The notes under the pieces are model-generated. The model ran no database searches, was not told the origin of the DNA, and worked only from the letters and a program-made list of their open reading frames with translations. Both the position numbers and the translations under genes were made by a program. Source: a bacterium (GTDB taxonomy: Bacteria; Zhuqueibacterota; Zhuqueibacteria; Oceanimicrobiales; Oceanimicrobiaceae). From it: DNA of 13,636 bases. The stretch is from assembly GCA_046757025.1 (NCBI GenBank), contig JBHHXN010000142.1:1-13636 (forward strand). Reading direction: 5' to 3'. Shown in pieces: positions 1 to 13,295 of the stretch (positions are counted from its first letter, which is position 1; the number at the start of each line of letters is the position of its first letter).

Positions 1-33
1 AAACCTTCCAGGTCTTGAAGACCTGGAAGGTTT
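1..33. repeat. Perfect palindrome, REP-like hairpin
   Basis: AAACCTTCCAGGTCTT (1-16), one central G, then its exact reverse complement AAGACCTGGAAGGTTT (18-33). It may extend beyond the window edge. Confidence 0.85.
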
Positions 34-3455: not shown

Positions 3456-3468
3456 TACCCAACTTGGG

Positions 3469-3644
3469 GCTGTCCCAAAATGGGGAGTGGTCAATGCGAG
3501 TCCCGCGTTTTGTACAGGACGAAGTAATCTACTAATTCGCACCTAAAGTCCAGAGATTGCTTCGTCGTCCCGATTTTCATTATTGTAAAATTTTAAGAAA
3601 AATCGGGACTCCTCGCAAAGACATTTTTTGATTTTTGGGACAGC
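3469..3644. mobile_element. Composite MITE-like element: GCTGTCC-type TIR shell around a GTCATTGCGAG-type REP core
   Basis: Perfect 12-bp TIR GCTGTCCCAAAA (3469-3480) / TTTTGGGACAGC (3633-3644). Core 3490-3622: GTCAATGCGAG…GACGAAGTAATCT…AGATTGCTTCGTC…CTCGCAAAGAC. Confidence 0.75.
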
Positions 3645-3699
3645 GCTGGATTTGATTTCAACCCATCACTTTCACACTAACTTCTTAAAGGAGGGCATC

Positions 3700-5409
3700 A
3701 TGAACAAACGGTTAATTCTTTTAACATTCTGCATTCTGAGTTTTTTGGCCGCAGACGTTTTTGCGCAGGGAACGCCTTCACCGGGATATTCCATCGCGCA
3801 GACGGTTACGCGCTTTGATTATCCGGGGGACATTCCGGATTCCAGCGGCGTAGGCGGAGACGACGTGCTGGCGGGATATGATCTCGACAAGGACGGCAAA
3901 GGGGAAATTATTTTGATAACAGATAATTTAGCAGCTTCTCAGGAAGGGCCGGCGATCATCGTCTTTGAAGCCACGGCCGACAATACCTACGAAGCGGTCT
4001 GGTGGTTTGAAGTCCGTGAGCACACCAACGATAACGGCAGCTTTCCCACCCTGGCCGTGGGCGATTTGGACGGCGACAATCAACTGGAAATCCTCGCCGG
4101 CATCCCTTACGGCGCTCGCGAAATTCCCAACAATCCCGTGCGCTTTTACGTGTTTGAAGTGGACACCACCGTTGACAACGGCTTGCCCCAGGAGCCCACC
4201 GCTACCTGGACTTTTGAAGCCAATCCCACGGACAATACCCGCCCGTCTGCCATGGACGTTTACGACGTGGATGGCGACGGCCAGCAGGAGGTTCTGATGA
4301 TTTTTCGCGCCTGGAACAACGGCGGCAATGCTTTCATGATTTTTTCATTGGTAGGCGATTTTTTTGGCGGATTTACAACCTTCACCAAAGAGTTTTTTGA
4401 TGACACCAATTTGACAGAATCGGATGGCAATATTTATGATGTCCATGTGCATGACGTCAATGGCGACGGCACCCCGGAAATATCCGCTGTTGAATGGGAG
4501 GCCGATGGCATCATAGCGGTTTTTTATCAGGCCACGGGGCCGGATCAATATCAAATGGTCCATAAAGCCGTTTCAGATTTTACTTTTTCCGCTGGCGCTT
4601 TGGGGTCGTTTTTGCCCTGGGATATCGACGGCGACGGCATTGAGGAATTCATGATGGCGGGTTCTGATGGACAACTCTATGTGGTTCCGGTTCCAAACGG
4701 CGATGTGAAGCAAATCACGGCTAGCAGTTTTAATCCGATCAATCTTTATGATAATCAAATTCGCGGCGCGGCAATTGGCGATTTCGATGACGATGGCAAC
4801 GTCGATTATTTGATCGCCGGCTCATACAACAAAAAAATCTTTCGGGTTGAATACAAAGGCAGTGGCAGCGTCACCGACGCCAACAGCTACGATTTTACCA
4901 CGGTTTACGACGATCCCAACGCCGGACGCTACTATTACATTGCCTTTCCACAGGATCGCAAGGCATTGAGAGATGGCCAGACGCTGGTGGATATGGATGG
5001 CGACAATAAACGCGAACTGGTATTTACGGATCAGGAAGATACGGCTCTCGGAGACAATTCAATTTACGTCACCATTTTAGAATCTGACATCGCGGTGAAA
5101 GTGGAGCTGCCGGATCTGTCCACCCTACCAAGCGGATTTGAGCTGCACCAGAATTTTCCCAATCCCTTCAATCCGGAAACCGTCATTCAGTACGATATTC
5201 CAAGAGCCGGACAAGTGAAAATTACGGTGCATAATCTACTCGGAGAGACCATCGCCACACTGGTCGATGAGTACAAAGGACTCGGCACTCATCGTGTCAC
5301 CTGGAATGGCAAGGATTTCAACGGGGTGAACGTGCCGAGCGGTGTTTACATTTATACCATCATTGCCGGCGACTTCAAGCAGTCCAAACAGATGACCCTG
5401 CTGAAATAA
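3700..5409 (+). CDS. Secreted FG-GAP/DxDxDG-repeat protein with T9SS/FlgD C-terminal domain; paralog of 70..1683
   Basis: Start re-assigned from TTG 3628 to ATG 3700 because AAGGAGG lies just upstream and MNKRLILL…VFA-Q is a signal peptide. Motifs DLDKDG, GDLDGD, DVDGDG, DVNGDG, DIDGDG, GDFDDDG and DMDGD. C-terminus LHQNFPNPFNP…MTLLK. Confidence 0.9.
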   Translation: MNKRLILLTFCILSFLAADVFAQGTPSPGYSIAQTVTRFDYPGDIPDSSGVGGDDVLAGYDLDKDGKGEIILITDNLAASQEGPAIIVFEATADNTYEAVWWFEVREHTNDNGSFPTLAVGDLDGDNQLEILAGIPYGAREIPNNPVRFYVFEVDTTVDNGLPQEPTATWTFEANPTDNTRPSAMDVYDVDGDGQQEVLMIFRAWNNGGNAFMIFSLVGDFFGGFTTFTKEFFDDTNLTESDGNIYDVHVHDVNGDGTPEISAVEWEADGIIAVFYQATGPDQYQMVHKAVSDFTFSAGALGSFLPWDIDGDGIEEFMMAGSDGQLYVVPVPNGDVKQITASSFNPINLYDNQIRGAAIGDFDDDGNVDYLIAGSYNKKIFRVEYKGSGSVTDANSYDFTTVYDDPNAGRYYYIAFPQDRKALRDGQTLVDMDGDNKRELVFTDQEDTALGDNSIYVTILESDIAVKVELPDLSTLPSGFELHQNFPNPFNPETVIQYDIPRAGQVKITVHNLLGETIATLVDEYKGLGTHRVTWNGKDFNGVNVPSGVYIYTIIAGDFKQSKQMTLLK

Positions 5410-5468
5410 AAATGGCCGGAATGCGTGCTATTTAGAAGAGTGACGTTTAATTAACATTGCAACAAAAG

Positions 5469-5563
5469 GTCATTGCGAGTCCCGTGTTTTACGCGGGACG
5501 AAGCAATCTCTTAGCTTGCAGAAAATCAGGAGATTGCTTCGTCACTTCGTTCCTCGCAATGAC
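5469..5563. repeat. GTCATTGCGAG-type palindromic REP-like element, no clear outer TIR
   Basis: GTCATTGCGAG (5469-5479) / CTCGCAATGAC (5553-5563) are perfect inverted ends. Internal GACGAAGCAATCTC / GAGATTGCTTCGTC stem and a GTCCCG…CGGGAC side hairpin. Homologous to 3490-3622 and 13012-13120. Confidence 0.85.
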
Positions 5564-5659
5564 TGCAACGTCCATTGGGAAACACTACCCTAAAAGACAA
5601 CAAGTCAAAATAAACTCTTTTGAAATTTACATTTTTAGGGCAGGGTAAATATTTGAAAA

Positions 5660-5688
5660 GAAAGGAGTCTCTGCATAGGGCTCCTTTC
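5660..5688 (+). other. Stem-loop in the leader of the next CDS
   Basis: GAAAGGAG (5660-5667) / CTCCTTTC (5681-5688), extendable by G-U pairs, about 36 nt before the ATG at 5725. Confidence 0.4.
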
Positions 5689-5724
5689 GCCGTTTTCAGC
5701 CACAAAACTAAGAGAGGAATGATC

Positions 5725-7419
5725 ATGAAACGCATTTACCACTTTTTGGTCATTGTCGTGCTGGTTGTTTTCATCGCGAGCACCCCGGCAACCACACATG
5801 CAAAAGTATATGCCTCACAATTAAAAATCACCAACCCGGACGGCAGCGCTTTTGATGGCAATTTTTCAGATGGCACCGGCGCATTGCTGTCGTTTATTTT
5901 GAATGACACCGCCAGCACGGTGACCGTCGATATCAAAGACGCCAGCACCGGTCAGGGCGTGGCGCAAATACTCGCCGGTGCCCGCAGTCGTGGTTTAAAT
6001 TCAGTCACCTGGGACGGCAGCGGCAGCGAAGCTGGTAAACGCTATCTTTTCACCGTCACCGCTGAACAGCCCAATGCCTCGAGCACCGACTGGACGGTTT
6101 TCTTTGATTCCGGCGACATCGATATTTTTACCCGGGGCTGCGACGTGGTAACGGATATGAACAGCTCCTTGTTTGGCCTGTTTTTCGCGCCCAACACCGG
6201 CGGCCCCCTGCAAAAAGGCATCACCATTTACAATTCAGACGGCTCCTTTCACGATCCGTTCTTGGTCGCGGCAGATATTGGCAGCGGAGGCACCATCGAC
6301 TGGGGAGGCGGCACGCAATCGATGTATTCAGGCGTGCTGGATGACGAAGGTCGCTTTTATGTGTCGGCGGTCGATTTTGGTGAGATTCGAAGATTGAATC
6401 GCGACCATTCTCTGACTACGGTTATCACCGGACTTACCAAACCCAAAGGGTTGTATCTGGTGGGCACCGGCGCCGAGCGCGTGCTTTACATTTGCGATGA
6501 CAGCACGGTAGTGCGGGCGGCTATTGGCAACGAAGACGTGTTTAGCGGAACCGTGGAGCTGGTGGGGCAATTTTCCAAAGGCTTGCCGCGAAACATCGCT
6601 CTGGACGACGATGGCGCCATGTATGTGACTTTTCGTTCCAGCAACGATTTTGACAGCGAACCCGTCGGTTTCAATAAATACGATATTTCCGGCAATTTGC
6701 CCGTGACAGACGATGATGCCGTCTGGTTTTTAATGCCGGAAGTTACGTTTCGAATCACCGACCTGGAATTCGATCATGGCAGCGACCGCACGACTTCTAC
6801 GGACGACATACTCTACTATGCCACCCGGGCCGGCGACGGAGTGTTCGATGACGGTCTGTGGCGGATTGAAGATATCAATTTTCCCTTCCCGCAGGTGCTG
6901 AATTTGGTGGACGAGCAGGATCTGTATGGTTTTGATGACAGCGCCAACATCAACGATCGCGCAGCCATTGCGCTGGATGCCGCAGGTAATATGATTTTGC
7001 TGGAAAATTCAAATGAGCACGTATTTTTTCTGTCCCCGCCCGGTGAGGGTCCAACAAACAGCTTCACCACGACCAGCCCGGGTACGGTGTCGGTGGAAGT
7101 GCCGGTGAGCGTGGAACCAAGCCCTGAATCGAATACCGTTGGCTCCTACAGGCTAGAGGCGAATTTTCCCAATCCGTTTAATCCAACCACCACCATTCGT
7201 TATGAGCTGGGGAGCGGCGGCTTCACTACCTTGCGCGTTTTCAACTTAAAGAGCGAGCTCATCAGCGAGCTGGTGAATCGACATCAGCCGGCTGGCGAGT
7301 ATTCAGTTACCTGGAATGGCCGAGATGACGCCGGCCAGGCTGTGGCCAGCGGCGTGTACATTCTGGTGTTAAACTCAGGGAAGTTCACTAAATCCGTGCG
7401 CATGACGCTGATGAAGTAA
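5725..7419 (+). CDS. Secreted protein: N-terminal FlgD-like Ig domain, probable beta-propeller, C-terminal T9SS/FlgD domain
   Basis: Start re-assigned to ATG 5725 (AGAGGA at 5713-5718; signal peptide MKRIYHFL…THA-K); ATG 5719 is an alternative. Blades such as 'LDDEGRFYVS', 'IALDDDGAMYVT' and 'IALDAAGNMIL'. C-terminus LEANFPNPFNP…WNGRDDAG…SGVY…MTLMK. Confidence 0.88.
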   Translation: MKRIYHFLVIVVLVVFIASTPATTHAKVYASQLKITNPDGSAFDGNFSDGTGALLSFILNDTASTVTVDIKDASTGQGVAQILAGARSRGLNSVTWDGSGSEAGKRYLFTVTAEQPNASSTDWTVFFDSGDIDIFTRGCDVVTDMNSSLFGLFFAPNTGGPLQKGITIYNSDGSFHDPFLVAADIGSGGTIDWGGGTQSMYSGVLDDEGRFYVSAVDFGEIRRLNRDHSLTTVITGLTKPKGLYLVGTGAERVLYICDDSTVVRAAIGNEDVFSGTVELVGQFSKGLPRNIALDDDGAMYVTFRSSNDFDSEPVGFNKYDISGNLPVTDDDAVWFLMPEVTFRITDLEFDHGSDRTTSTDDILYYATRAGDGVFDDGLWRIEDINFPFPQVLNLVDEQDLYGFDDSANINDRAAIALDAAGNMILLENSNEHVFFLSPPGEGPTNSFTTTSPGTVSVEVPVSVEPSPESNTVGSYRLEANFPNPFNPTTTIRYELGSGGFTTLRVFNLKSELISELVNRHQPAGEYSVTWNGRDDAGQAVASGVYILVLNSGKFTKSVRMTLMK

Positions 7420-7446
7420 TCCGCGCAACATGGGATTTGGGCTGCC

Positions 7447-8406
7447 CTATTCCTTTTTCTGAAGTTCGAGGCTGTAAATTCTCCCGCGCTTCTGTTCATC
7501 GAAAAGGACAGACGGCCTGCCTGGAGCCCAGTCGGGATTCATTTCGAGGCGATTCGGGCTTTGGGTGAGATTGGTTTTAGCTCGGCCGTCCACCCTGATC
7601 AGGTAGATGTCGGAAGAAAGAATTTGGTGGCCGTCGTCCATAGGCAGCATGTACGCAATCCATTGGCTGTCGGCTGACCAGGCGGGCCGTTCGCCCTTTC
7701 CCAGATCCACCAGGTCCGAACCGTCGATGTTGACCACGTACAGGTTGCCGCCGGCGATTTCAAACGCAATTTTTTCTGCGCTGGGAGATAATCGCGCGTT
7801 CAAAATTTGCCCGGGCACCGGCTGAAGTTGGCTGAACACATTGCCCCGGGTATCGGACAGCACAAAGCCTTTTTCCGTGGTATAAAAGATCGGTTGAAAA
7901 TAACCCCCGGCGCTCGTCTCTTCGGAAATGTCATTGCTGGTGGGTATCAGATCCAGTCCTTGTTTTGTGTAGAGATAAACAAAGCGGCGGTCCAGGGTCC
8001 AGCGGGGCAGACCCACATATCCAGCGCCGTATTTTTTCAGGATACGAATTTGCTTTAATTCCAGATTCAGGATCTTAATTTGCGTGGTCTTGCGGCGTTT
8101 AACGTAGGCGTGTGTTCGATAAACGATTTCTTTCGAGTCTGCAGACCAGCGGAATTGTAAGCCGGCGCCAGGTTCGTTTGTGAGGGATTGCAGCTGGCTG
8201 CCATCCGCCTTCATGACCCAGATGCCGCGGTAATTTTCGCCGGCCAGCGCGATTTTTGTACCGTCCGGCGACCACACGGGTTGCTGAAAATATTGCTCAG
8301 CCGGGGTCAGCGGCACCGCTTCCCCGGCAGCCTGCCAGCTTTCCTGTGCGTGTCCTGCGGCAAACAAATTTAGGCTGATAATGAGTAATAGTTTTGAATT
8401 GAGCAT
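7447..8406 (-). CDS. TolB-like PD40/WD40 beta-propeller protein, exported
   Basis: 319 aa ORF with AGAGGA RBS and a signal peptide (…GHA-Q). PD40-like repeats PVWSPDGTKIA, FRWSADSKEIVY, LSPSAEKIAF, PAWSADSQWIAY and PDWAPG. Lacks the TolB N-terminal domain and a T9SS-type tail. Confidence 0.85.
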   Translation of the reverse strand: MLNSKLLLIISLNLFAAGHAQESWQAAGEAVPLTPAEQYFQQPVWSPDGTKIALAGENYRGIWVMKADGSQLQSLTNEPGAGLQFRWSADSKEIVYRTHAYVKRRKTTQIKILNLELKQIRILKKYGAGYVGLPRWTLDRRFVYLYTKQGLDLIPTSNDISEETSAGGYFQPIFYTTEKGFVLSDTRGNVFSQLQPVPGQILNARLSPSAEKIAFEIAGGNLYVVNIDGSDLVDLGKGERPAWSADSQWIAYMLPMDDGHQILSSDIYLIRVDGRAKTNLTQSPNRLEMNPDWAPGRPSVLFDEQKRGRIYSLELQKKE

Positions 8407-8499
8407 TATTTTATTCCTCTAACCTAAAGAATTCAAGTAACGTGCGCAACGGTTAAATTTAAACCAAGTGTTGCATGGCCTACGATAAATATTGGGGAT

Positions 8500-8644
8500 T
8501 GTCCAAAAAGTCACGAAGAGAATACACTTTATGCTAGGTGTAGTCGAATTGTGGCTGTTTTTAAACAACATACGATACCCTTCGAAGCAGTTTATCCTGG
8601 GCTCGTCGAAGGACTCAGGGTAAAGCATCATGACTTTTTGGACA
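8500..8644. mobile_element. Composite MITE-like element: (GC)TGTCC-type TIR shell with a CCCTTCGA…CTCAGGG-type core
   Basis: Perfect 14-bp TIR TGTCCAAAAAGTCA (8500-8513) / TGACTTTTTGGACA (8631-8644), followed by GCCC. Core 8576-8622: TACCCTTCGA…CCTGGGCTCGTCGAAGGA-CTCAGGGTA. Confidence 0.7.
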
Positions 8645-8760
8645 GCCCTGATGACCATTCAGGGGATTTTTCCAACGTTTTCGACAGCCCCTGCTGAACA
8701 GCTATAAAATCAGCATCTTATGATCTCATACCGATATATTCATGAATTATTCCGGACCAC

Positions 8761-11250
8761 TCACTTGATAAAGATCATCTTTTTTCTGGCTTGCAGTTGG
8801 CCAATGGTAAGCTGATAAAAATAAACACCGCTGCTGACAATCTCACCCGCGTCATCGCTTCCGTTCCAAACGACGCTGTGCCGGCCTGGCGGCAGAGCAA
8901 AATCTACCAGCGTGCGCACAATTTGTCCCTGCAAATTGAAAACCCGCAGCACCACTTTCTGATTCGCCTCAACCGAAACTGGCACCTGGTAATTGATCAC
9001 CGTTTCTGGATTGAAGGGATTGGGGTAATTTTGTGCCAGGTTAAAATCCACTGGCCGCAAAAAATCCCTTTTTAATCTTTCCACTCCGACGGTGTTTGGG
9101 CGACCGCTGGTGAGGATGTCTTCCACATACAATCGGCCCGAATTTTGACGGTTTCCTGTGAGCTGGATGCCGATGAGCTGAATTTGTTCGGCATCGAGCT
9201 GGCCGTTCCCGTTCTCGCCGGGCTGCAGAGCCGATTGCGACAAATCGAATCGCAGCATTTGCCAGCCAGACCATTCGATTACCTGCCAGGGGAGTGCTTC
9301 GACTCCGTCCAAATCCCGCAAAATCAAACGGATTTGATTGCCGCTGTTGTCTCCATACAGGTAGAATCCCAGCTCATCAACTTTGGTGAGATCGATGTCC
9401 GGCGTGGTAATGGCATTCACTTGCAGGCGGCCGTCGGGTCCCGAAAACTGGTAACTCAGCTCCCCGCTTTGAAGGCCGGAAATGGGTTTTTGCTGAGCGC
9501 TCTGGAACCAGGTATTTTCCGGCACGGTATTTTGTGTAAACGGCGAATCGTCCGGATCGCTCCAGGAGAAAGCGCTTTCAAAATCGTCTATGAAATCGAT
9601 CTGCACGCTCGCCCGGGAGGTGGTGAATTGCCGCTGGAGATTCATTTGCATTTCTTCACCGTCCCGCAGACCCAGCCCACGCAGGAATGTGAGAAAGTAG
9701 CGCTGTCCCGATTCCAGCGGTTGTTGGGGAACAAACGTCAGTCGGCGGCTGCCGTCGTCCACGTAATCCAGACTTAACGCCACCGCGGCCCCACCGGTGC
9801 GGGTAATTTTTATGTTGTCTGCGGAGATCGTATTGAGATCCAGCTCTTTATTAAATTCTGCCCAAAAGACGTCCCGGATGAAAACCGAGGTGTCACGCTG
9901 TACGGGGAAGAAGTCCATCACCGCAGGCCGGTTGGTGTCCAGCTCAGCCGTCGTAAACGAAAAGCTAAAATCGTCGCCGCCCACGCCGTCTGCGTTGCCG
10001 TCCAGAGGGCGTCCGGAAGCATCGGTGGCGGAGCCGAGGAGTCGTGCCTGGTATTCGGTACTGAATTCAAACCGTGTGTCCGGCTCAAACAACATAATAT
10101 CGTCGTTGGCTCCCCAGATGAAATGGCCGGTGGCAGCGGGAACGGTGCGGAACGCTACTTCCACGCTCCGGCGCGCCATCTTTCTGTTGAAGCGAAAGCC
10201 GATTTGGTTGTACACGCCGAAGTTTTGAGTTTGGGCAGAAGGGAGCGTGGCGGTGACAATGGGTGGAACGGCCAGGGTCAGAGAAAAATCGGCAAATGCG
10301 AAATCGTGGGCGCGCACCTGCACCATCTTGGTCAGGGTGTCGAATTCGGCGGCGCTCACCGTGAGCTGGTATGTGCCCGGTTCCAGGTCGTGAAATACGA
10401 ACAATCCGTTGTCGTGGTTGTCGGTGGTGTATTTTGCGTTGCCAGGATTCAGGGTAATTTGCGCGCCGTTGATGGGCGCCTCTGTTTCGGCGTCGCTGAC
10501 GATACCAGACAATGCACCGGTGGGCATTTTGCCGGCGTCGTAAAAATCCAGAATGGCCATGTACAGCGCCCGGGCTTCCAATTTCAGGAAATCTGGATTG
10601 CGCAGTTTTCTCTCTTCCACCGCATGGTCGTGAAAAGTGCCTTCCGAAAGCTCGCCAGGCATTTGCAAGTTGTTCAGCACGCCGAGGCTGAAGCCGCCAT
10701 TGCAGCCGCCGTAAAACGTCCAATCGAGACTCACCCGGGTGGAAGAGGTACGCAGCGCTTTGAAAATGGCGTTAGCCATGAATTGGCTCATGACGTCCGA
10801 TTGTCCAGGCCATTCCGGTTGACCGGTGCCTCTTCGCCTGCCATCGGGACAGGGATTGGTTGAAGTTCGTTCTTCTTCCAGCAAGACAAGGGTAAACCGG
10901 CTGCGGCCATTAAAAGCGTTGTGATGCACTGAATGAAACCAATCCGTGCCAAAATTGTTGGCGATGGCTTCTCGTTGGCTCAAGGAGGGATTGGTGGAAT
11001 CGTCCACCCGCGTGAGCAGAACCGTGTCGATGTTGGCGCTTTTGAGAAACTGTTTCAAAAACAGTGAAATCGTCATGTTGATATCGGCTTCTCGCAAGCC
11101 GGTGGGGCCTTGATTTCGATTGCCGCTGCCATGTCCGGGATCGATGCATAAGCTCAGGCCGGAGAGAGCCTGCGCAAAGGACGAGGATGGTACAGCGGAG
11201 GTCGCGAGCAGTACCTGAATGAGCAGAATAATGCGGAATGTCTGTTTCAT
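8761..11250 (-). CDS. Secreted multidomain N-acetylmuramoyl-L-alanine amidase (Amidase_3, carboxypeptidase-regulatory-like domain, two Big_5-like Ig domains, possible carbohydrate-binding domain, T9SS/FlgD tail)
   Basis: 829 aa ORF with a signal peptide. Amidase_3 motifs IDPGHG, EADIN, LTR…SLSQR…AN, HSVHHN and LSEGTF. 'LSGIVSDAETEAPINGAQITL…GTYQLTVSA' domain. Two Ig-like repeats (…FNRKM…, …FNKELD…). C-terminus LAQNYPNPFNP…MIFIK. Confidence 0.9.
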   Translation of the reverse strand: MKQTFRIILLIQVLLATSAVPSSSFAQALSGLSLCIDPGHGSGNRNQGPTGLREADINMTISLFLKQFLKSANIDTVLLTRVDDSTNPSLSQREAIANNFGTDWFHSVHHNAFNGRSRFTLVLLEEERTSTNPCPDGRRRGTGQPEWPGQSDVMSQFMANAIFKALRTSSTRVSLDWTFYGGCNGGFSLGVLNNLQMPGELSEGTFHDHAVEERKLRNPDFLKLEARALYMAILDFYDAGKMPTGALSGIVSDAETEAPINGAQITLNPGNAKYTTDNHDNGLFVFHDLEPGTYQLTVSAAEFDTLTKMVQVRAHDFAFADFSLTLAVPPIVTATLPSAQTQNFGVYNQIGFRFNRKMARRSVEVAFRTVPAATGHFIWGANDDIMLFEPDTRFEFSTEYQARLLGSATDASGRPLDGNADGVGGDDFSFSFTTAELDTNRPAVMDFFPVQRDTSVFIRDVFWAEFNKELDLNTISADNIKITRTGGAAVALSLDYVDDGSRRLTFVPQQPLESGQRYFLTFLRGLGLRDGEEMQMNLQRQFTTSRASVQIDFIDDFESAFSWSDPDDSPFTQNTVPENTWFQSAQQKPISGLQSGELSYQFSGPDGRLQVNAITTPDIDLTKVDELGFYLYGDNSGNQIRLILRDLDGVEALPWQVIEWSGWQMLRFDLSQSALQPGENGNGQLDAEQIQLIGIQLTGNRQNSGRLYVEDILTSGRPNTVGVERLKRDFLRPVDFNLAQNYPNPFNPETVINYQVPVSVEANQKVVLRVFNLQGQIVRTLVDFALPPGRHSVVWNGSDDAGEIVSSGVYFYQLTIGQLQARKKMIFIK

Positions 11251-11302
11251 ATTCTATCCAATACGGCTTTCTTAGCATAAATTGATTTGATGACACCTGG
11301 TG

Positions 11303-11332
11303 AATATATTAAAACTCGCCCTAATTTGTCAA
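11303..11332 (-). promoter_or_regulatory. Putative sigma70-type promoter for the amidase gene
   Basis: Minus strand TTGACA (11332-11327), an 18-nt spacer, then TATATT (11308-11303), about 50 nt upstream of the ATG at 11250. Confidence 0.55.
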
Positions 11333-11341
11333 CTTTAACAT

Positions 11342-11387
11342 TTGTAATTGTGAAAAATAGTTGTAATTTATTATTAAATTTGTAATT
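11342..11387. promoter_or_regulatory. Three direct repeats of TTGTAATT with a 19-bp period; candidate operator
   Basis: Exact TTGTAATT at 11342, 11361 and 11380, in the divergent amidase/kinase intergenic region. Confidence 0.5.
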
Positions 11388-11457
11388 TAGTATGACTCAA
11401 TCCCAATTGTTCGCTTAAACTCGATTCTCCAAATTCATTTGTTTTAAAACATAAGTA

Positions 11458-11651
11458 CATGCGTGTCCGAATTAAAAATACAGTACTAGACATAAGCTCC
11501 TGGAAATAATGCAATAGAGATATGGTTTTGCAACTGAAGACTTGAATTAATATTTCTGCGAAAACACCCCCCTATTTCCCCCCTTGAGGGGGGATTAAGG
11601 GGGGTGTCCTGCACAAAATCTCATAAAAATGAGTTAAACCGGACACTCATG
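11458..11651. mobile_element. Degenerate composite MITE-like element: GTGTCC-type TIR shell with a poly-C/poly-G hairpin core
   Basis: CATGCGTGTCCGAATTAA (11458-11475) matches the reverse complement of TTAAACCGGACACTCATG (11634-11651) at 15/18. Core hairpin 11564-11607: ACACCCCCCT-att-TCCCCCCT-tg-AGGGGGGA-tta-AGGGGGGTGT. Confidence 0.6.
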
Positions 11652-11688
11652 ACCAAAGTAATTAAACAATTTTTTATCGAATACGAAC

Positions 11689-12639
11689 ATGTATTATCTT
11701 GGTATCGATGGCGGCGGTTCAAAGACTTCAGGCATTCTTTGCGACGCCAAAGGAAAAATGCTCAAAACGCTGACAAAAGGCGCCGGCAACATCGCGGTGC
11801 TGGCAGAGAAGCAGGTCGTGCAGCTTTTAAATGAAATGGTATTTGAATTGCTCGAGGAAATCCAGGTCGAGCAAATTAAATGGGCGACGTGTGGATTTGC
11901 GGGCGCGGGCCGGGAAAAAGAAAAGAATCTTGTCGGGCAAATCATTCGTGAAATCGGTATTCGTAATTTTACCCTGATGACCGATGCCGAGCTTTTGTAC
12001 TATGCCATCCACGGCGAAAAACAGGGCTTGCTCATAGCCTCCGGAACGGGCTCGGTTTGTTTGATAAAAAATAAAAATCATGAGTTTGAACAGCTTGGCG
12101 GTTGGGGGTACCTGCTCGGTGACGAAGGAAGCGGTTACGACATCGGACGCAACGCCGTCCGAAACGCGTTGCGAGAGCAGGAGATGGGCCGGCCGTTATC
12201 GAAATTAACCCATGCGCTGCTCACTCATTGCGACGTGGACACCCCCCGGGCTCTGATGTCCATGATCTATGCCGCCGACAATCCGCAAAATCTGCTGGCC
12301 TCGTTTGCGCAAATCGTCGGTGACCAGGCGCTGCAGGAAGAGCCCAACGCGCTGCGAATCGTGGATGCAGCAGCTAAAAATCTCGTGGAACTTGCTTTGA
12401 CCAGTTTGGAGCGCATGGAATCAGAGCCGCCACACCGCATAGCCCTTTCCGGTGGCGTTTTAAACGAGCCTTCTGTGTTCAGCAGTAAATTCAAACGAAA
12501 AGCTCAGCAGCTTAATCTGGATTTTCATTATTTTACACAGGAAATGCCGCCTGCTGCTGCAGGTATTTTGTATTCACTGCATAAAGCGGGAGAAATGATT
12601 TCGGAATCGCTGTTCAAAAAATTGCGCAGCCTTAAATAG
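11689..12639 (+). CDS. BadF/BadG/BcrA/BcrD-family sugar kinase (N-acetylglucosamine/N-acetylmuramic acid kinase-like)
   Basis: 316 aa ORF with motifs LGIDGGGSKT, GFAGAG, TDA, IASGTGS, GGWGYLLGDEGSGYDIG and LSGGV. Substrate is inferred from the family and gene context. No strong RBS. Confidence 0.88.
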   Translation: MYYLGIDGGGSKTSGILCDAKGKMLKTLTKGAGNIAVLAEKQVVQLLNEMVFELLEEIQVEQIKWATCGFAGAGREKEKNLVGQIIREIGIRNFTLMTDAELLYYAIHGEKQGLLIASGTGSVCLIKNKNHEFEQLGGWGYLLGDEGSGYDIGRNAVRNALREQEMGRPLSKLTHALLTHCDVDTPRALMSMIYAADNPQNLLASFAQIVGDQALQEEPNALRIVDAAAKNLVELALTSLERMESEPPHRIALSGGVLNEPSVFSSKFKRKAQQLNLDFHYFTQEMPPAAAGILYSLHKAGEMISESLFKKLRSLK

Positions 12640-12787
12640 TGTCCATCCGTAAAGAACCTTTTTTTGTCATTCCAGCAATCTTTAAGCGGGAATCCATTGG
12701 TCCGTTAGGCATGAGATTCCCGATGAGCTTGTCCCTGCATGTTTTAAGCAGGGAGCACTCGGGAATGACGATGACGGATGGACACTA
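12637..12787. mobile_element. Composite MITE-like element: GTGTCC-type TIR shell with a GTCATTCC…GGAATGAC core
   Basis: Perfect 14-bp TIR TAGTGTCCATCCGT (12637-12650) / ACGGATGGACACTA (12774-12787), with TA at both ends. Core 12666-12769 contains ATTCC…GGGAAT hairpins. Confidence 0.8.
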
Positions 12788-12978
12788 AATAATCTGTTTA
12801 TAAGACGAAACGGCTGCGTGATATTTGAGCAACTGCTGAGTGCAAGGTTAAAAGCCTGTGTGAAAAGTTTGGTTGAGACGTTTTTAACTTAAAACCAGGT
12901 AGATCTCAGCCTCCAAAAACGACTAAGAGTAAGCTGGAAGAATCTTTTTAATAAACAGCGCTTTACGTACAATAAAAA

Positions 12979-13148
12979 GTAAATGTTCAGTGAAGTAGCC
13001 AACTTTTACAAGTCATGGCGAGTCCCGCGTTTTGTGCGGGACGAAGCAATCTCCTGTAAAATTGGGTATAAGTCGTGGATACGTAAAAGATTGCTTCGTC
13101 GCTCCACTCCTCGCAATGACTTTATTGGGTAGATCACTGAACAATTAC
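12979..13148. mobile_element. Composite MITE-like element: GTAA(A/T)TGTTCAG-type TIR shell with a GTCATTGCGAG-type core
   Basis: GTAAATGTTCAGTGA (12979-12993) / TCACTGAACAATTAC (13134-13148) match at 14/15 as an inverted repeat. Core 13012-13120: GTCATGGCGAG…GACGAAGCAATCT…AGATTGCTTCGTC…CTCGCAATGAC. Confidence 0.78.
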
Positions 13149-13295
13149 AATCAAAAAAGATCCTCCTGTAAGGAGGAGAATTTCAAAGACCCTTGAGTTT
13201 GACTTTTTACACAATCTGAAAATTCACGTCTTTTGTTTTTATTAGGCAGGTAAAAACTTGACCAACCACTTTTATAAATAGCAAGGGAGAATTTC

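What the first reader, a model, noticed from the sequence alone, without database searches (positions are those of the whole stretch)
3469..13148. Combinatorial 'shell + core' intergenic elements: TIR families and REP-like cores are mixed and matched
Seen directly: five elements have an outer TIR pair enclosing an unrelated inner palindrome. The same core (GTCATTGCGAG type) sits in a GCTGTCCCAAAA shell (3469-3644), in a GTAAATGTTCAG shell (12979-13148) and with no clear shell (5469-5563). Conversely, related shells carry different cores: the (GC)TGTCC shell holds a GTCATTGCGAG core at 3469 and a CCCTTCGA core at 8500, and the GTGTCC shell holds a poly-C/G core at 11458 and a GTCATTCC core at 12637. 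Established: MITEs and REP palindromes are each well known separately. Inference: either REP cores preferentially insert into MITEs or MITEs capture and ferry REPs, giving a two-tier modular non-autonomous mobile system. I do not know of a description of this as a system, but cannot verify novelty.
Basis: partly seen in the sequence, partly recalled or inferred. Interest (0 to 1): 0.8.

Follow-up and report, generated by a model that had tools for sequence, protein, structure and literature searches.

The report
Mini-transposons ferrying nuclease hairpin repeats
The repeats between genes here are miniature transposons with ends matching four insertion-sequence families, wrapped around hairpin repeats of a type that elsewhere flanks small nuclease genes, which likely lets those hairpins spread by hitch-hiking on other elements' transposases.

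Summary
The shell + core anatomy is real and genome-wide. In this 5.96-Mb draft genome, 142 of 270 hairpin-dimer cores lie inside intact inverted-repeat shells (12.5 expected; a control hairpin family 0 of 15). The shells are MITEs with family-specific target duplications. Their ends match transposase-bearing ISNCY, IS66, IS1182 and, less exactly, IS4 elements in other genomes; none was found here. Most cores are the dimers that flank Ssn-type GIY-YIG nuclease genes. Shells enclosing hairpin-nuclease-hairpin cassettes exist: broken and shrinking here, intact and amplified to at least 23 sites in another genome. So shells likely captured cassettes a few dozen times, lost the gene, and now move shell and core as one unit. 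Mixing is between founder families, not copy by copy. Corrections: the 'bare' core at 5469 has a decayed shell; the 11458 and 12637 shells are unrelated; 12979 sits inside a further shell. The scan noted a similar nesting before in Poribacteria (e1-9843900), and Di Nocera 2013 mentions it in passing. How capture happens is unresolved.

The parts
3466..3647 (.). IS1182-type MITE shell, about 182 bp, holding a K1 (GTCATTGCGAG-type) dimer; no clear target duplication
   Evidence: sister copies at C114 and C252; same ends on IS1182 elements L360 and L329
3490..3622 (.). K1 hairpin dimer core with two small inserted hairpins
   Evidence: K1 dimers flank GIY-YIG genes in L291, L295, L303
5433..5592 (.).
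8494..8648 (.). IS1182-type MITE shell holding a K5 dimer (about 8527-8625) with a decayed left arm and a 26-nt inserted hairpin (8587-8612)
   Evidence: 13 hits (self included) cover at least 75%
11458..11651 (.). IS4-like MITE shell with a 9-bp target duplication (7 of 9 match), holding a C-run/G-run hairpin at 11564-11607
   Evidence: decayed relatives; IS4 ends and 9-bp duplications in L433, L436, L437, L445
12639..12785 (.). ISNCY-type MITE shell with a perfect 6-bp duplication (12633-12638 and 12786-12791; the left copy overlaps the upstream stop codon), holding a K2 dimer (12666-12769) with an inserted hairpin (12727-12754)
   Evidence: 40-copy subfamily; same ends on ISNCY elements L201 and L204; published SRM motif matches at 12665
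12852..13218 (.).
   Evidence: uninterrupted paralogues at C84, C73, C72; IS1182 ends in L235, L236, L259; a paralogous contig joins across the insertion
12979..13148 (.). IS66-type MITE shell with an 8-bp duplication (7 of 8 match), holding a K1 dimer at 13012-13120; single copy of this pairing in the assembly
   Evidence: IS66 ends in L223, L224, L226
1..33 (.). Small single hairpin of a family that is not inside shells (internal control)
   Evidence: 0 of 15 inside paired shells

Best explanation
These are MITEs whose ends and target duplications match ISNCY, IS66, IS1182 and IS4-type insertion sequences and whose interiors are hairpin-repeat dimers, most likely the remains of captured hairpin-nuclease-hairpin cassettes that DDE transposases acting in trans move as one unit. 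Step 1 (shown): native cassettes, an Ssn-type GIY-YIG gene between hairpin arms, exist without shells. Step 2 (product shown, route unknown): a pair of IS ends comes to enclose a cassette with only a few to about 70 bp between end and arm. Step 3 (shown as deletion series): the gene decays or is deleted, leaving arm-loop-arm. Step 4 (inferred from target duplications and copy number): the parent family's transposase amplifies shell plus core, also into other elements. Step 5 (inferred): cores keep exchanging small hairpin patches afterwards. The combinatorial look comes from a few dozen founding captures, not from each core choosing a shell.
For: Perfect target duplications against a cross-pairing null: 6 bp in 24 of 40 and 38 of 85 copies (null 8.2 and 8.5), 9 bp in 13 of 19 (0.06), 7 bp in 9 of 14 (0), 8 bp in 7 of 29 (0), 4 bp in 28 of 41 (6.8).

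Same ends on transposase-bearing elements: ISNCY above the NCBIfam cut-off in L183, L186, L201, with 6-bp duplications in L183, L187, L191, L198; IS66 in L223, L224, L226; IS1182 in L235, L236, L259-L261, L360, L329; IS4 with 9-bp duplications. In G125 and G136 a core-bearing shell and a full ISNCY with matching ends occur in the same genome.

Cores K1-K4 flank short GIY-YIG genes, mostly without shells. IS66-type shells in this genome enclose broken GIY-YIG cassettes of 463 bp and a 266-bp deletion form, and also four-helix-bundle and GxxExxY cassettes. In G146 a 410-bp IS66-type element carries an intact 95-aa GIY-YIG gene, 81% identical to this genome's unshelled one. G131 has 23 left-end and 17 right-end contig breaks in the same element. 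A gene-less sister in G146 shares the left end and arm and keeps short gene-like scraps as its loop (scraps read by eye). GIY-YIG relics also sit in IS4-like and GG-ended shells in other genomes.
Against: No ISNCY, IS66 or IS1182 transposase was found in this assembly (94.8% complete, 374 contigs), so mobilisation in trans is inferred. No empty allele was seen in contigs of four runs from one study, and no same-genus genome was available. No intermediate with both a transposase and a core was seen in the terminal 150 bp of 29 IS loci. The IS1182-type family of the 3466 and 8494 elements shows no clear duplication (best 4 of 19). Cassette origin is shown for K1-K4 only; no native gene was located for K5, K6 or the C-run/G-run core. 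Gene-bearing shells are a minority among GIY-YIG loci: 1 clear case (L286) among 30 class loci. Outside this genome some shells hold no recognisable hairpin core (L111, L112, L124, L179) or are 32-49 bp and empty. Ten or so shell families have no identified partner.
Confidence: 0.74

Rival explanations
1. Cores are independently mobile and keep inserting into, or replacing the interior of, pre-existing empty mini-MITEs.
For: Empty 32-49 bp shells, several with perfect duplications, exist in other genomes. The K1 and K2 subfamilies of one ISNCY-type shell share one spacer at 15 of 17 positions, as a core swap would give. The same small hairpin inserts are polymorphic in parallel in unrelated shells.
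Against: No shell under 54 bp in this genome (three 12-bp pairs are one self-complementary site). The 54-93 bp shells seen keep core relics. Junctions and loops are fixed within subfamilies, and most spacers are subfamily-specific. Gene-bearing forms and deletion series point from large to small.
Confidence: 0.11
2. The whole element is moved by the core's own nuclease (Ssn-type GIY-YIG), and the IS-like ends are passengers.
For: An element with an intact GIY-YIG gene has multiplied in G131. Chenal et al. 2025 note that the repeat-gene-repeat layout resembles an IS (PMC11893778, Discussion).
Against: Duplication length follows the shell family and not the core. SsnA was shown to bind and cut single-stranded DNA only, and the passages I read report no strand transfer. 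The shelled GIY-YIG copies in this genome carry stops or deletions.
Confidence: 0.07
3. Co-occurrence is survivor bias: MITEs and REP-like repeats both pile up in the same tolerant intergenic spots.
For: Elements do nest and abut: 6 of 287 are nested and 14 lie within 30 bp of another.
Against: 142 of 270 cores are inside shells against 12.5 expected, while a control hairpin family is 0 of 15. Cores sit at a fixed place between paired ends in up to 40 copies.
Confidence: 0.05
4. The mosaics are assembly chimeras between repeats.
For: Many contigs break inside these elements. A few hybrid left/right ends exist (1 clear case of 128; others seen).
Against: Matching target duplications join the left and right flanks. 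Contigs of four runs (one study, possibly the source sample) span the 8494 element and support junctions of others. The same anatomy appears in genomes of many phyla.
Confidence: 0.03

Closest known systems
Prokaryotic MITEs and transporter IS (definitions read as passages in PMC9330008 and PMC3184786)
   Same: Short terminal inverted repeats, target duplications, no transposase, many copies, ends shared with full IS elements; some forms carry a passenger gene.
   Different: The interior is not IS-derived (only the 13-20 bp end is shared) but a hairpin-repeat dimer or a repeat-flanked nuclease cassette, and this recurs across at least four IS families in one genome.
Ssn nucleases with NTS/SRM repeats (Chenal et al. 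2025, PMC11893778; passages and Discussion read, supplements not seen)
   Same: Single-domain GIY-YIG genes of about 95 aa between GTC-tagged hairpin repeats; the published motif matches the 12665 core and 49 of its 75 non-coding hits lie in paired shells.
   Different: The main text has no occurrence of 'MITE'. Here most repeats, and sometimes the gene, are enclosed by DDE IS ends. The window's K1 and K5 cores do not match the published motif.
CGTC- and GTAG-tagged REPs inside long palindromes (Di Nocera et al. 2013, PMC3733652; abstract, background, section 7 and passages read)
   Same: REP dimers regularly sitting in unrelated palindromes, with empty target palindromes not found in two of three species.
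   Different: Noted in passing for three species, not linked to IS ends or target duplications; the paper concludes CGTC repeats apparently lack a dedicated transposase.
IS elements that target REPs (IS1397, IS621, IS1594; passage in PMC3184786)
   Same: Shells here also land inside hairpin repeats, as at 12979.
   Different: That is the opposite nesting (IS inside REP) and does not explain a REP dimer between paired IS ends.
BrickBuilt MITE of Porphyromonas gingivalis (PMC4596501; abstract only)
   Same: A repeat array carried inside a MITE.
   Different: One family with a tandem minisatellite; no nuclease cassette or multi-family pattern in the abstract.

Membership tests
MITE | Terminal inverted repeats around a short non-coding interior | tested here: met
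MITE | Target-site duplication of family-specific length | tested here: met
   met for the ISNCY-type, IS66-type, one IS1182-type, and the 9-bp and 7-bp families
MITE | Target-site duplication for the IS1182-type family at 3466 and 8494 | tested here: inconclusive
   best 4 of 19 at 3 bp
MITE | Multiple dispersed copies | tested here: met
   28 multi-copy subfamilies of up to 40 copies; the 12979 pairing is single-copy
MITE | Mobilised in trans by a cognate transposase | not testable with these tools
   partners found only in other genomes; needs a transposition assay
ISNCY-derived (NF033593) | Same ends and 6-bp duplication as transposase-bearing elements | tested here: met
IS66-derived | Same ends as single-ORF IS66 elements; 8-bp duplication | tested here: met
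   ends in L223, L224, L226; 8-bp duplications on other IS66 elements L205, L207, L209 and on the shells
IS1182-derived (NF033551) | Same ends as transposase-bearing elements | tested here: met
IS4-derived (11458 element) | IS4-type ends and 9-bp duplication | tested here: inconclusive
   ends similar but not identical, duplication 7 of 9, relatives decayed
Ssn / SRM repeats | Match to the published degenerate SRM motif, K2 core at 12666 | tested here: met
Ssn / SRM repeats | Match to the published degenerate SRM motif, K1 and K5 cores of the window | tested here: not met
   the only hit in the window is 12665
Ssn / SRM repeats | Repeats flank a short single-domain GIY-YIG gene | tested here: met
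   K1-K4; Pfam PF01541. Not shown for K5, K6
Ssn / SRM repeats | Protein in CDD cd10448 and cuts single-stranded DNA beside the hairpin | not testable with these tools
   no CDD library on hand; needs biochemistry
GTAG REP / RAYT (REPIN) | GTAG tag and a RAYT gene flanked by the repeats | tested here: not met
   window cores carry no GTAG tag; the two Y1 loci above cut-off are not flanked by them; the third, weak hit was checked only for inverted repeats
Transporter IS / passenger-carrying MITE | Passenger gene between IS ends | tested here: met
   L488, L286, G000 C28 and C129; not for the five gene-less window elements

The most novel reading that the evidence does not exclude
Small repeat-flanked nuclease cassettes (Ssn GIY-YIG, and perhaps GxxExxY and four-helix-bundle cassettes) are hyperparasites of insertion sequences. 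They enter an IS, their nuclease cuts just outside its own hairpins and strips the IS down to its ends, and the resulting carrier is spread by the remaining transposases. This would be a general route by which CGTC/SRM repeats, which have no transposase of their own, become genome-wide repeat families across phyla.
Probability: 0.25. Interest if true: 0.85.

Novelty: new variant of a known kind. Interest (0 to 1): 0.6.

Why it matters
How CGTC/SRM hairpin repeats multiply is an open question: Di Nocera 2013 found no dedicated transposase, and Chenal 2025 showed cutting but only hypothesised mobility. In this genome most such repeats sit inside the ends of identifiable IS families, which gives a concrete, testable answer (hitch-hiking) with named enzyme-element pairs. 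It also shows Ssn nuclease genes inside a 410-bp IS66-ended element that has multiplied in one genome, and it warns that MITE and REP catalogues may count the same elements separately. Whether this applies to repeat-rich genomes such as Neisseria or Rickettsia was not tested.

Tried and rejected
IS630 as partner of the TA-flanked shells: rejected, because the duplication is 6 bp and the IS630 at C318 has other ends. IS1595: none found in this genome. Three scans of viral contigs gave 52 loci and no convincing paired element. Rfam: no match at gathering thresholds. Promoter and terminator scans: 20 against 12.6 +/- 3.8 and 23 against 18.0 +/- 4.7 in shuffles, no clear signal. Empty alleles: no same-genus genome among 40 relatives and none in contigs of four runs of one study. 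No RNA holder listed. Hairpin fold-back copying of one IS end: not favoured, because left and right spacers differ. An IHF-like site as the reason cores are kept: present in most copies of 9 of 28 multi-copy subfamilies against 5% of random windows, but the motif was recalled, relaxed after looking, and several loops are related, so it is a lead only. Core types in other genomes' shells were read by eye; no automated count exists for them. Literature: nine full-text searches found no description of this as a multi-family system. A 2024 MITE review (PMC10969869) and a 2024 MITE census (PMC11602168) were searched by term only and showed no passage on it. Subscription papers and all supplements were not seen.
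Full report
Setting. The window is all of contig C142 of a 5.96-Mb, 374-contig, 94.8% complete draft genome. Its genes are secreted FG-GAP, FlgD-Ig and amidase proteins and a BadF-family ATPase, unrelated to the finding. All elements are intergenic and have no Rfam match.

Observation. A de novo search gave 1120 inverted pairs that cluster into many end families. Seventeen end motifs plus one added later gave 287 paired elements under 700 bp, in 28 multi-copy subfamilies of up to 40 copies plus singletons. Of 270 core dimers, 142 lie inside intact paired shells against 12.5 expected from non-coding length. Another 56 have both flanks matching shell termini, 40 have one and 32 have none. A motif-free test gave 126 of 251 cores with a strong flanking inverted repeat against 5 of 600 random windows; 19 cores near contig ends were dropped. 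A small single-hairpin family, with a copy at window 1-33, is inside shells 0 of 15 times, so this is not true of every palindrome. Copies of a subfamily are not independent; by subfamily, 24 of 28 carry a recognised core.

Corrections. The core at 5469 has a decayed shell of an 8-copy family. The shells at 11458 and 12637 belong to different families. The element at 12979 interrupts the core of a larger shell at 12852-13218, whose uninterrupted paralogues serve as the empty site. That spot has five layers: IS1182-type shell, K3 core, IS66-type shell, K1 core, inserted hairpin.

The shells are MITEs. Perfect target duplications, against a null that pairs flanks of different copies, were 6 bp in 24 of 40 and 38 of 85 (null 8.2 and 8.5), 9 bp in 13 of 19 (0.06), 7 bp in 9 of 14 (0), 8 bp in 7 of 29 (0) and 4 bp in 28 of 41 (6.8). 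The family at 3466 and 8494 gave none clearly. One of them led to an ISNCY transposase. In 125 genomes of the class, ISNCY elements carry the same ends, several with the 6-bp duplication, including the exact end of the 12639 element. Single-ORF IS66 elements carry the ends of the 12979 shell, and IS1182 elements those of the 12852 shell. A metagenome scan found IS1182 elements with the ends of the 3466 and 8494 family. IS4 elements have similar ends and 9-bp duplications to the 11458 shell. Shells share only the 13-20 bp end with these elements. No ISNCY, IS66 or IS1182 transposase was found in this assembly, but G125 and G136 hold both a core-bearing shell and a matching full ISNCY. About ten shell families remain without a partner.

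The cores are nuclease-cassette repeats. This genome has one intact, unshelled 98-aa GIY-YIG gene among K4 dimers at C173. Of 30 loci with its relatives in the class, the flanks of 22 were displayed; most show K1-K4 dimers and no shell, and a motif scan of all 30 flagged one clear shell, L286. This matches the Ssn nucleases and SRM repeats of Chenal et al. 2025 (PMC11893778), who show cutting of single-stranded DNA a few bases upstream of the hairpin. Their motif hits 75 non-coding sites here, 49 of them inside paired shells, including window 12665, but misses the window's K1 and K5 cores. No native gene was located for K5, K6 or the C-run/G-run core.

Missing links. IS66-type shells in this genome enclose arm-GIY-YIG-arm cassettes with broken genes: two of 463 bp, further decayed copies, and a 266-bp deletion form. 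A 135-bp gene-less family shares the left end and arm (by eye). Other IS66-type shells enclose decayed four-helix-bundle and GxxExxY cassettes, whose unshelled versions also occur. In 26 genomes chosen because they carry the ISNCY-type end, 14 have such a GIY-YIG gene. G146 holds a complete 410-bp IS66-type element with an intact 95-aa gene and a 7-of-8 duplication. In G131 the same element breaks the assembly at 23 left ends and 17 right ends. A gene-less sister in G146 has the same left end and arm and a short loop, but a different right end. IS4-like (416 bp) and GG-ended (490 bp, three copies) shells around GIY-YIG relics occur in other genomes.

How mixed is it? One ISNCY-type shell holds six core types, and K5 sits in six shell families. 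Yet another shell family has one core type in its 40 copies, and K6 is essentially confined to one shell. Spacers between end and core are mostly subfamily-specific; one is shared between a K1 and a K2 subfamily. No shell under 54 bp exists here, and the short ones seen keep core relics. In other genomes the same ends enclose SRM-type dimers (15 of 66 paired short elements by eye), tandem heptamers, GTAG-type and C-run/G-run hairpins, plain filler, or nothing (7 of 66 at 32-49 bp); the IS1182-type end shows a similar range. So mixing reflects founding events, each followed by amplification.

A third tier. Small hairpin inserts of 11-27 bp net occur as plus and minus alleles at the same core position in unrelated shells, for example in K5 cores of three shell families. 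This suggests patch exchange between cores, or a site-specific process, after capture. It is unexplained.

Mechanism and certainty. Shown: anatomy, enrichment, duplications, matching IS ends, cassette-bearing shells, deletion series. Inferred: mobilisation in trans and the direction from cassette to core. Unknown: how IS ends first enclose a cassette. Options are cassette entry into an IS followed by loss of the IS body (possibly helped by cuts just outside the hairpins), capture as filler during repair of an excision gap, or entry into an empty mini-MITE. No intermediate was seen in 29 IS loci.

Known or new. MITEs and transporter IS (PMC9330008, passages), IS targeting of REPs (PMC3184786, passages), a repeat inside a MITE (PMC4596501, abstract) and Ssn-SRM pairs are all described. 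Di Nocera et al. 2013 mention REP dimers inside long palindromes in three species and say CGTC repeats apparently lack a transposase. Nine full-text searches found no account of the multi-family capture; subscription papers and supplements were not seen. An earlier unchecked scan note reports GTAG hairpins in IS630-derived MITEs in Poribacteria. I rate it a new variant of known kinds, interest 0.6.

Noticed in passing
window:1-33: Single 33-bp hairpin of a family with 15 strict copies, none in shells; some sit inside decayed four-helix-bundle cassettes (C14, C92).
   Followed up: partly
window:8587-8612 and 12727-12754; genome-wide: Small hairpin inserts occur as plus/minus alleles at the same core positions in unrelated shell families, in some K6 cores as tandem doubles; mechanism unknown.
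   Followed up: partly
window:8655-8695: Short imperfect palindrome resembling a decayed IS1182-type end pair right after the 8494 element; no other copy found.
   Followed up: partly
G000:C1:92418-92618 and related copies: One IS1182-type shell family often sits in the loop of a small palindrome that is itself the core of two other shell families.
   Followed up: no
L260 (G018); G000:C15:27626-27756: A second IS1182-type family has the same short flanks in the full IS and in the MITE; they resemble integron attC core sites (resemblance recalled, not tested).
   Followed up: no
L549, L552 (G146); G000:C149:106-201: Hybrid elements with the left end of one shell family and the right end of another around a shared core type; recombination or misassembly not resolved.
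   Followed up: partly
L096: The ISNCY-type end also precedes a truncated IS5-family transposase in an alphaproteobacterial genome.
   Followed up: no
G000:C9:60799-61067 and three more: A 269-bp four-copy TIR element without a recognised core; likewise a roughly 430-bp AT-rich family at which many contigs break.
   Followed up: no
G000:C59:26700-27473: A short GIY-YIG gene lies between partial duplicates of what looks like a tRNA gene (by eye).
   Followed up: no
G000:C95:17324-17606: A 283-bp element with its own inverted repeats holds a short GIY-YIG frame; it resembles the tiny GIY-YIG elements in other scan notes.
   Followed up: no
window:70-7419: Four tandem co-oriented secreted proteins with C-terminal FlgD-Ig or secretion-tail domains, two with FG-GAP repeats.
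   Followed up: no
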